From a virus (lineage: Duplodnaviria; Caudoviricetes): a stretch of 64,000 nt of DNA. Made by a program: the position numbers and the translations under genes. Under the pieces are notes generated by a model that searched no databases, was not told the DNA's origin, and saw nothing but the letters and a program-made list of their open reading frames with translations. Location of the stretch: positions 16,139 through 80,138 of IMG/VR virus record IMGVR_UViG_3300037878_000134. The stretch is one strand, 5' to 3'. Shown here in pieces: positions 55,664 to 56,654 of this stretch (position 1 is the stretch's first letter; each line of letters starts with the position of its first letter).

Positions 55664-56654
55664 ATTGCAACGCCTGCTCAAGGGGCCATGCCTTGAGACC
55701 TGACGATCGAGCGAGATCACCCCTTCAGGGTAGTCCGTCACAATGCCTGCTCAGGGGGCCGTGCCCTGAGACGACGACTCGTACGACTGTGCGAGGATCG
55801 GTCTGCGCCGGTCGCAACGCCTGCTCAGGGGGCCCTGCCTTGAGACAAGAAGTATCGAGCCTAAAAGCCTGCTCAGGGGGCCGTGCCTTGAGACGTCTTG
55901 TACGATTTTCGCCGCGGCCAGCAGTTCGGCCCTGGAAACGCCCGCTCAAGGGGCCATGCCTTGAGACAACGAAGCCGACAACTTCGTCGACTGCACCTAG
56001 GAGGAGCTCACAACGCCTGCTCAGGGGGCCGTGCCCTGAGACCTTCGGAGTACGTCCTCGGGCACCGGCTGACGCCGGTCGCAAAGCCTGCTCAGGAGGC
56101 CCTGCCTTGAGATGGGTCCACGGCTGCGCCGACCGCCACCTCGCGCACCAACCTCGAAACGCCTGCTCAGGGGGCCGTGCCCTGAGACCTACGCACACGC
56201 CCGCTCAGGGGGCCATGCCTTGAGACCCTCCGCCGACTCTCCTCGCAAAGCCTGCTCAAGGGGCCCTGCCTTGAGACCATTCGACTGCGGGAACCTGTCG
56301 ACGGTGGCCAGGGCTCACAACGCCCGCTCAGGGGGCCATGTCCTGAGACGCTACCCGAGGCGCTTGTACCGCGAGCGCAATTGCGGAAAAAAGAGCGCAA
56401 TTGCGCTCACAAAGCCTGCTCAAGGGGCCATGCCTTGAGACAGAGGCGCATGCGCAGCCGCGTTGCCTCTGGGGCCGCCTCGCAACGCCTGCTCAGGGGG
56501 CTGTGCCTTGAGACGGTTTGATCCCCAGCCCTCTTCTTGGGTCCGAGGTTGCAACGCCCGCTCAGGGGGCCATGCCCTGAGACGCCGCAGTCGTGGCTGC
56601 GCGGATGCAGTCCGCAGCCTCCCAACGCCCGCTCAAGAGGCTGTGTCTTGAGAC
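55664..56654 (+). CRISPR. CRISPR array D: 15 divergent repeats with irregular spacers
   Basis: Repeats start at 55664, 55737, 55811, 55859, 55932, 56007, 56078, 56153, 56191, 56242, 56314, 56406, 56479, 56548 and 56619. Confidence 0.92.

What the first reader, a model, noticed from the sequence alone, without database searches (positions are those of the whole stretch)
55664..56654. Repeats are diversified, not decayed: compensatory stem changes and a free 5' end
Across arrays the stem CTCAGGG/CCTTGAG varies by pairing-preserving swaps: CTCAAGG/CCTTGAG (A-U), CTCAGGG/CCCTGAG (G-C), CTCAGGG/TCCTGAG (G-U) and CTCAAGA/TCTTGAG (56619 repeat). The loop and the first 5-6 nt (GTTGC, GTCAC, CTCGC, ATTGC, CTGGA, GCCTA) vary freely, while AAnGCCYGCTCA and GAGAC are nearly fixed. 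This shows selection on RNA structure and predicts processing near repeat position 5-7. Diversifying direct repeats would also stop the phage's own recombinase from deleting replication or packaging genes lying between arrays.
Basis: partly seen in the sequence, partly recalled or inferred. Interest (0 to 1): 0.72.

Follow-up and report, generated by a model that had tools for sequence, protein, structure and literature searches.

The report
Phage Cas12m arrays with drifted repeats
The 15 all-different repeats are a CRISPR array of the phage's own Cas12m system (a family whose tested members bind DNA without cutting). They have changed wherever the guide-RNA fold tolerates it and stayed fixed elsewhere: a known system that has aged in an unusual way.

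Summary
The complete 80-kb phage genome has exactly 38 co-oriented 36-nt repeats in four arrays. Nine are identical (array B, next to cas12m) and the other 29 all differ.

The effector is a type V-M Cas12m. The repeat matches published V-M crRNA scaffolds.

Variation sits in the first 5 nt, nt 8 and 12, loop nt 24-26, the closing pair and one G.U pair. The 18 Watson-Crick-paired columns take 9 of 84 inferred changes.

The first 5 nt are not free: they keep a CTCGC consensus.

Best reading: these are old arrays that no longer grow (no cas1), kept under purifying selection for the Cas12m scaffold and drifting at the tolerated sites. Some decay is present.

A processing site near nt 5-7 fits published Cas12m data. 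The anti-recombination idea is plausible but weakly supported (P about 0.03, in one array only), and no general recombinase was found among the 30 ORFs scanned.

I saw the same pattern in other phage Cas12m arrays, and this scan had already noted it on other genomes.

The parts
55664..56654 (+). Array D: 15 repeats, all different, filling the gap between the ORF ending at 55654 and the ORF starting at 56687. Start-to-start periods are 73, 74, 48, 73, 75, 71, 75, 38, 51, 72, 92, 73, 69, 71.
25705..26099 (+). Array A: 6 repeats, all different, between the integrase gene and tRNA-Met. Spacers 1 and 3 are 77% identical.
37668..38687 (+). Array B: 15 repeats. B1-B6 and B10-B12 are identical. B7-B9 and the far-end B13-B15 are variants; B13-B15 resemble the A/C/D type.
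44286..44393 (+). Array C: 2 variant repeats and one spacer.
35625..37700 (+). cas12m ORF. Homology to solved Cas12m starts near residue 96, so the real start is probably further downstream. The last 10 codons and the stop codon lie inside repeat B1.
   Evidence: 23vw_A E = 1.8e-70; 8hhl Cas12m2 E = 4e-23; PF07282
25776..25811 (+). Repeat A2: C11 to T together with G21 to A. This is a compensatory change in the pseudoknot helix (columns 9-11 with 21-23).
56619..56654 (+). Repeat D15: G20-C28 replaced by A-U, plus A-U at pair 18-30. It is the only two-sided change in the hairpin.
56078..56113 (+). Repeat D7: A20.C28 mismatch and T at column 36. C2 (44358-44393, A19.C29) and B9 (38223-38258, G15.A33) are the other two repeats with a broken pair.
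56153..56226 (+). Collapsed unit D8-D9: only 2 nt of spacer, and D9 has lost its 5' tag. Just 10 nt separate the two scaffolds, so D8 has no room for the roughly 17-nt guide its relatives use.
55811..55894 (+). Compact unit D3-D4 (period 48): 20 nt between scaffolds, about the length of one finished guide.
56350..56405 (+). Spacer 11 of array D, 56 nt long. It contains a 20-nt tandem duplication carrying the palindrome GAGCGCAATTGCGCTC.

Best explanation
Array D, arrays A and C, and the far end of array B are old CRISPR arrays of a phage-borne type V-M (Cas12m) system that no longer grow.

The phage has no cas1, so new repeats are not being copied in and the repeats are not kept uniform. Each repeat has drifted at the positions the Cas12m guide-RNA scaffold tolerates:
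- the 5' tag (nt 1-5), which is cut off or disordered in relatives;
- nt 8 and 12;
- loop nt 24-26;
- the closing pair 20-28;
- the G.U pair 18-30, where either single transition still pairs.

Purifying selection holds the rest: C5-A6-A7, the pseudoknot helix 9-11 with 21-23, the hairpin 14-20 with 28-34, G13, G27 and the 3' GAGAC.

Most units should therefore still give Cas12m-loadable crRNAs of about 30 nt of handle plus about 20 nt of guide. By analogy with characterised Cas12m, these would bind target DNA and block transcription.

The loss of repeat homology is most simply a by-product of this drift. It may also help an array survive when it cannot regain spacers it loses.

What is shown: the identity of the system, the fold, and the uneven pattern of change. 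What is inferred: expression, loading, processing site and silencing.
For: System identity.
- Cas12m sits directly upstream of array B.
- The complete genome with terminal repeats has no Cas1.
- No anti-repeat exists on either strand.
- The repeat resembles the published crRNAs of the Un, Tf and Ms Cas12m orthologues, which share GUUGCAAUGCC...CUCAG...CUGAGAC.

Fold.
- Hairpin plus pseudoknot helix are paired in 99% of cells. Only 1 of 500 shuffles reaches this, and 6 of 500 reach two pairs changed on both sides.
- Across other phage Cas12m repeat families, 95% of cells are paired against 69% in shuffles, 0/500.

Uneven change (Fitch counts on a neighbour-joining tree, events per column):
- 5' tag 7.0
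- G.U pair 4.0
- unpaired scaffold 2.75
- hairpin Watson-Crick columns 0.58
- pseudoknot Watson-Crick columns 0.33
- P = 2e-14 over all columns and 2e-7 within the scaffold; 69 column pairs fail the four-gamete test, so free sites have changed repeatedly.

Signs of maintenance.
- No copy scores between 45 and 14 bits.
- Repeats next to cas12m orthologues in other phages (45-49% protein identity) were not used to build the model. They score 48-61.5 bits, the same range as arrays A, C and D. They differ from array B's repeat only at columns 1-5, 18 and 25, apart from one variant copy in L017.
- 33 of 34 internal units leave at least 20 nt between scaffolds.
- No indel lies inside any of the 38 scaffolds.
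- Spacers of A, C and D carry the period-3 GC signal of coding DNA (0.343 against 0.226 in shuffles).

Literature. The first 7 nt of the repeat are disordered in Cas12m2, and the scaffold is a pseudoknot plus stem (PMC10442227). The GoCas12m handle is about 30 nt, forming a triplex plus pseudoknot (PMC11013384).
Against: - There are no expression or binding data.
- No target was found for any spacer of array B or D in the cultured-phage collection, nor for any spacer of the four arrays in the fetched loci.
- Three repeats have a broken pair, D8/D9 is collapsed, and five units have indels, so some decay is real.
- The repeats are related by descent. Their tree rests on only 36 columns, so the P values are approximate.
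- The covariance model was built from these same 38 repeats.
- The age of the arrays cannot be dated because no close relative of this phage was found.
Confidence: 0.66

Rival explanations
1. Repeat heterogeneity is itself selected. Arrays whose repeats share only short identical runs escape homologous recombination. An array that cannot regain spacers, and the genes lying between arrays, are therefore kept.
For: - The longest identical run between repeats has a median of 12 nt within D, is 6-16 nt between D neighbours, and has a median of 10-12 nt between arrays. Within the uniform block of B it is 36 nt.
- D neighbours differ more than a random order would give (P = 0.028).
- Odd and even repeats of array A alternate in loop type.
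Against: - The neighbour effect is marginal and appears in one array only. L005 (P = 0.15) and array A (P = 0.28) are not significant, and L002 and array B go the other way.
- Nine identical repeats persist in array B.
- Indels and a collapsed unit show that rearrangement still happens.
- No RecT-, Erf- or RecA-type gene was seen among the ORFs scanned.
- Deletions between arrays would remove essential genes and be purged whatever the repeats look like.
- Drift under purifying selection alone predicts the same pattern.
Confidence: 0.15
2. Arrays A, C and D are non-functional relics that are simply decaying. The conserved core reflects recent origin or copying from array B.
For: - All their repeats are degenerate.
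- Spacers are odd in places (2, 12, 15 and 56 nt).
- Three pairs are broken.
- There is no adjacent cas gene.
- No targets were found.
Against: - Free columns have changed many times while 16 columns never changed in 38 copies.
- Changes in helices are mostly pair-preserving: 17 single and 2 double against 3 breaking.
- A, C and D carry their own alleles at columns 8, 24 and 25, not array B's, so conversion from B is not the cause.
- There are no half-decayed copies.
Confidence: 0.1
3. The arrays are mosaics assembled by recombination with the arrays of other phages. Each of those phages has its own uniform repeat, so the variety is imported rather than evolved in place.
For: Some 5' tags seen here match or resemble the uniform repeat of other phages: CTCGA matches L016, GTCGC matches L015/L018, and CTGGA resembles L017's GTGGA.
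Against: - Twenty-nine distinct variants would need many donors.
- No variant here is identical to a foreign repeat.
- A, C and D share alleles (C8, C24) that are absent from those relatives.
Confidence: 0.05
4. The variant repeats have separate jobs. They could set different crRNA levels, act as Cas12m decoys or autoregulators, or cut the phage's long transcripts at fixed points.
For: - The arrays lie in four different gene modules, all on the coding strand.
- Units with too little room for a guide exist (D8).
- Earlier notes of this scan suggest such roles in other phages.
Against: - Nothing in the sequence separates functional classes of repeat.
- Unit spacing and the coding-like spacers are those of ordinary guide units.
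Confidence: 0.04

Closest known systems
Type V-M CRISPR-Cas12m (MmCas12m2, GoCas12m, MsCas12m, UnCas12m; PMC10442227, PMC11013384)
   Same: - The effector is homologous.
- The repeat is 36 nt with the same 5' GUUGCAAUGCC and 3' ...GAGAC and a pseudoknot-plus-hairpin scaffold.
- No tracrRNA-like anti-repeat is present.
- The 5' few nt are dispensable.
   Different: - The system is carried by a phage.
- It has four dispersed arrays.
- 29 of its 38 repeats are unique variants.
- The hairpin has 7 bp and the pseudoknot helix 3 bp, against 6 and 4 in other phage repeat families.
MV-1 myxophage Cas12m locus (bioRxiv 10.64898/2026.09.14.751636)
   Same: It is a phage-encoded V-M effector with an adjacent array, no cas1, cas2 or cas4, and no spacer targets found.
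   Different: It is described with one array, one consensus repeat and eight spacers. No repeat diversification or extra arrays are reported.
Degenerate far-end repeats of ordinary CRISPR arrays (general knowledge)
   Same: The oldest repeats accumulate changes. B13-B15 behave this way.
   Different: Here whole arrays are degenerate, and the changes respect the RNA fold rather than eroding it.
Atypical repeats of transposon-associated CRISPR systems (types V-K and I-F3; general knowledge, not tested here)
   Same: Variant repeats remain functional while differing from the array's main repeat.
   Different: There the variant marks one special homing guide. Here nearly every repeat varies and no special guide class is visible.
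Engineered non-repetitive guide arrays (general knowledge, not tested here)
   Same: Handle sequences are varied within functional limits so that repeats share little homology.
   Different: Those arrays are designed. Here the variety is most simply drift, and benefit has not been shown.

Membership tests
Type V-M CRISPR-Cas12m array | A Cas12m effector is encoded with the array | tested here: met
   ORF 35625-37700 matches 23vw_A Cas12m (E = 1.8e-70) and Cas12m2 8hhl (E = 4e-23). It also matches PF07282. Array B starts inside its last codons.
Type V-M CRISPR-Cas12m array | A 36-nt repeat folding into a pseudoknot plus hairpin scaffold like the characterised V-M crRNAs | tested here: met
   - 99% of cells are paired, with two double changes.
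- Family-wide covariation is strong, 0/500 shuffles.
- The sequence resembles the Un, Tf and Ms crRNAs in the supplement of PMC11013384.
Type V-M CRISPR-Cas12m array | No tracrRNA (no anti-repeat) | tested here: met
   No reverse-strand match to the repeat core exists anywhere in the 80-kb genome. The best minus-strand model hit scores 13.6 bits.
Type V-M CRISPR-Cas12m array | pre-crRNA cut within the repeat, leaving a handle of about 30 nt | not testable with these tools
   Only inferred. Columns 1-5 are variable and C5-A6-A7 is conserved. Published handle length and disordered 5' end are.
Type V-M CRISPR-Cas12m array | PAM-dependent DNA binding without cleavage | not testable with these tools
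   The D-E-D positions align with those of 23vw_A, which is deposited as a DNA-binding Cas12m. Activity is unknown.
CRISPR array (general) | Regularly spaced direct repeats separated by unique spacers | tested here: met
   Periods are mostly 69-75 nt. Only one spacer pair is similar: As1 and As3 at 77%, against a null maximum of 68%.
CRISPR array (general) | Adaptation module (cas1) able to extend the array | tested here: not met
   PF01867 has no match in the complete genome, while the control genomes were positive. V-M loci, including the phage MV-1 locus, commonly lack it.

The most novel reading that the evidence does not exclude
Phage Cas12m arrays that lack an adaptation module may persist as fixed, inherited guide sets. 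They would grow by unit duplication and change their guides by point mutation. Their repeats would be kept different from one another because neighbours that are too alike recombine and lose guides that cannot be replaced. That would be a natural non-repetitive guide array.
Probability: 0.18. Interest if true: 0.62.

Novelty: new variant of a known kind. Interest (0 to 1): 0.42.

Why it matters
The system itself is a known one (type V-M). The new point is how its arrays evolve.

The 29 natural variants amount to a tolerance map of the Cas12m guide-RNA handle. They show which nucleotides can change and which cannot. That is directly useful for building low-homology multiplex Cas12m arrays for gene silencing or base editing.

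The pattern also suggests that phage CRISPR arrays without acquisition genes are maintained for long periods as fixed guide sets. This can be tested with small-RNA sequencing and binding assays.

Tried and rejected
- Spacer targets. Arrays B and D were searched against 50,697 phage records. Only a low-complexity hit at E = 0.09 came back. All spacers against the fetched loci gave chance-level matches only. The one real match is the self-match of array B spacer 5, which lies outside this finding and has been followed up by others.
- Close relatives, to compare array D across genomes. None carries the repeat in the viral collection. None was found with the flanking head protein. One 6-kb fragment was found with the terminase, and it has no repeats.
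Relatives cannot be drawn for a virus record.
- Rfam has no family for the repeat.
- Folding energies of single repeats are not distinguishable from shuffles (z from -0.05 to -1.3). The fold rests on covariation, not on energy.
- An outer helix (columns 4-6 with 26-28) proposed by the minimum-energy fold shows no consistent covariation, so I rejected it.
- A four-unit periodicity in D (D1-D4 against D5-D8 in loop type) is not backed by any spacer similarity.
- Promoter and terminator scans around D gave nothing above chance.
- Multi-locus dispersal was not found in the complete relative holding L007.

Full report
**What is there.** The window is most of a complete 80,138-nt phage genome with a 127-nt terminal overlap.
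- Genes called by third-position GC all lie on the + strand.
- It encodes a terminase, a portal protein, a tyrosine integrase and an IS1595 transposase.
- A pattern search finds 38 copies of a 36-nt repeat, all on the + strand, in four arrays: A 25705-26099 (6 repeats), B 37668-38687 (15), C 44286-44393 (2) and D 55664-56654 (15). None lies in the 16 kb outside the window.
- A covariance model built from the repeats recovers exactly these 38 at 45.5-61.9 bits. The next best match scores 13.6 bits.
- Nine repeats are identical (B1-B6 and B10-B12). The other 29 are all different.

**Identity.**
- The ORF ending inside repeat B1 (35625-37700) is a Cas12m. Its best solved relative is 23vw_A, deposited as a DNA-binding Cas12m (E = 1.8e-70), followed by Cas12m2 8hhl (E = 4e-23). 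Homology starts near residue 96, so the true start is probably downstream.
- No Cas1 is present, and no anti-repeat exists.
- The repeat closely resembles the crRNAs used for the characterised Un, Tf and Ms Cas12m orthologues (supplement of PMC11013384).
- This is a phage-borne type V-M system. A 2026 preprint reports what it calls the first phage Cas12m, with one ordinary array. The viral collection, however, holds at least 12 loci on 11 phage contigs that encode relatives.

**The fold.**
With the hairpin it makes an H-type pseudoknot. It is paired in every repeat.
- Repeat A2 carries C11 to U together with G21 to A.
- With both helices, 99% of cells pair (1 of 500 shuffles reaches this), and two pairs have two-sided changes (6 of 500).
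- This matches the published Cas12m2 scaffold of a pseudoknot coaxial with a stem (PMC10442227) and the GoCas12m triplex plus pseudoknot (PMC11013384).
- In 39 distinct repeats from seven arrays (six repeat families) in other phage Cas12m loci, the same architecture is paired in 95% of cells, against 69% in shuffles (0/500). Nine of ten pairs have changed on both sides.

**Pattern of change.** Events were counted by parsimony (Fitch) on a neighbour-joining tree of the 30 distinct repeats. There are 84 events in all.

| Column class | Events per column |
|---|---|
| Tag, columns 1-5 | 7.0 |
| G.U pair 18-30 | 4.0 |
| Columns 6-8 | 3.3 |
| Unpaired scaffold | 2.75 |
| Hairpin Watson-Crick columns | 0.58 |
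| Pseudoknot Watson-Crick columns | 0.33 |

- The 18 Watson-Crick columns take 9 of the 84 events (P = 2e-14), or 9 of 39 within the scaffold (P = 2e-7).
- The G.U pair changes about as fast as unpaired scaffold sites, as expected if only pairing matters. G to A gives A-U (8 repeats), U to C gives G-C (6 repeats), and the unpaired combination A with C never occurs.
- 69 column pairs fail the four-gamete test, so the free sites have changed repeatedly.
- In the helices there are 17 pair-keeping single changes, 2 double changes and 3 pair-breaking changes (B9, C2, D7).
- These P values treat events as independent on a tree built from only 36 columns, so they are approximate. The contrast is large all the same.

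**The 5' end.**
- Columns 1-5 are the most variable, but in arrays A, C and D they keep a consensus CTCGC. C5, A6 and A7 are conserved, as they are in the bacterial V-M repeats.
- In one relative (L001, second array) seven repeats share an identical 28-nt scaffold while the 8 nt before it are unrelated, with a 61-nt period. The tag is therefore dispensable there.
- Published data give a handle of about 30 nt and a disordered first 7 nt.
- Processing near nt 5-7 is thus a reasonable inference by homology. It is not a new prediction, and I could not test it.

**Maintained or decayed?**

*Signs of maintenance:*
- The uneven pattern of change described above.
- No indel lies in any of the 38 scaffolds.
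- No half-decayed copies exist.
- Repeats next to cas12m orthologues in other phages (45-49% protein identity) were not used to build the model. They score 48-61.5 bits, the same range as arrays A, C and D.
- 33 of 34 internal units leave at least 20 nt between scaffolds. Cas12m2 forms a 17-bp guide-target duplex.
- The spacers of A, C and D show the period-3 GC contrast of coding DNA: 0.343 against 0.226 in shuffles and 0.374 for genome fragments.
- A, C and D share alleles (C8, C24) that differ from array B's uniform repeat but resemble B13-B15. They look like the older repeat type, and conversion from B does not explain their conserved core.

*Signs of decay:*
- Three pairs are broken.
- The D8/D9 unit is collapsed, with 10 nt between scaffolds and a lost tag.
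- Some units are short (periods 48, 51 and 57).
- Spacer 11 of array D contains a 20-nt duplication.

The short units keep about one guide length. This fits loss of the dispensable 3' part of the spacer together with the next repeat's tag.

**Recombination idea.**
- Diversification does cut homology. The longest identical run has a median of 12 nt within D, is 6-16 nt between D neighbours, and has a median of 10-12 nt between arrays.
- D neighbours are more different than a random order gives (P = 0.028). The effect is not significant in array A or L005, and it is reversed in arrays that have uniform blocks.
- No general recombinase was identified among the 30 ORFs scanned. That scan was not exhaustive.
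- I therefore treat reduced homology as a likely by-product, possibly helped by loss of neighbours that are too alike. It is not a demonstrated adaptation.

**Generality.**
- Fold-preserving variation within a single array also occurs in L001 (three two-sided stem changes in one repeat) and in L002 and L003 (two-sided changes in the pseudoknot helix).
- L005 shows within-array variation with one-sided changes only.
- This scan had already recorded the same pattern on several other phage genomes.
- I found no paper describing it in the library searched.

**Verdict.** This is a known system (type V-M) with an unusual and recurrent mode of array ageing. It is of moderate interest, mainly as a natural tolerance map of the Cas12m handle.

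Noticed in passing
window 56350-56408: Spacer 11 of array D is 56 nt long. It holds a 20-nt tandem duplication with the palindrome GAGCGCAATTGCGCTC, preceded by a run of A. On the minus strand this reads as a terminator-like hairpin, and it could also be a protein-binding site.
   Followed up: partly
window 25741-25775 and 25885-25919: Spacers 1 and 3 of array A are 27/35 identical in register (null maximum 68%). The differences are not confined to third codon positions. Either a unit was duplicated and then drifted, or two variants of one target were captured.
   Followed up: partly
window 37668-37700; L015, L016, L017: The last 10 codons and the stop codon of cas12m are encoded by the first repeat of array B. 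The overlap is kept in three orthologous loci.
   Followed up: partly
L001:12443-12844: This second array in a related phage has repeats made of the 28-nt scaffold alone. The 8 nt before each scaffold are unrelated, and the period is 61 nt.
   Followed up: partly
window 28213-28347: Three tandem 45-nt units each carry two GTGACnnGTCAC-type inverted repeats. They look like iterons or operators and lie inside or beside ORF 27591-28841.
   Followed up: no
window 24013-24403 and 24882-25287: Two stretches of about 390 nt within the long integrase ORF (23902-25518) are 74-86% identical to each other. This may be an internal duplication or two fused integrase-like segments.
   Followed up: no
window 22329-23369: An IS1595-family (ISXO2-like) transposase gene lies inside the phage genome, just upstream of the integrase.
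   Followed up: no
window 37987-38021 and genome C1:15320-15353: Spacer 5 of array B matches the phage's own gene at 34 of 35 positions. The mismatch is at guide position 1, and the 5' flank is GGTACAT. Another agent has already followed this up.
   Followed up: partly
window 55664-56188: Loop types and the column-18 allele repeat with a four-unit period (D1-D4 against D5-D8). This hints at an old four-unit duplication, but the spacers show no similarity.
   Followed up: partly
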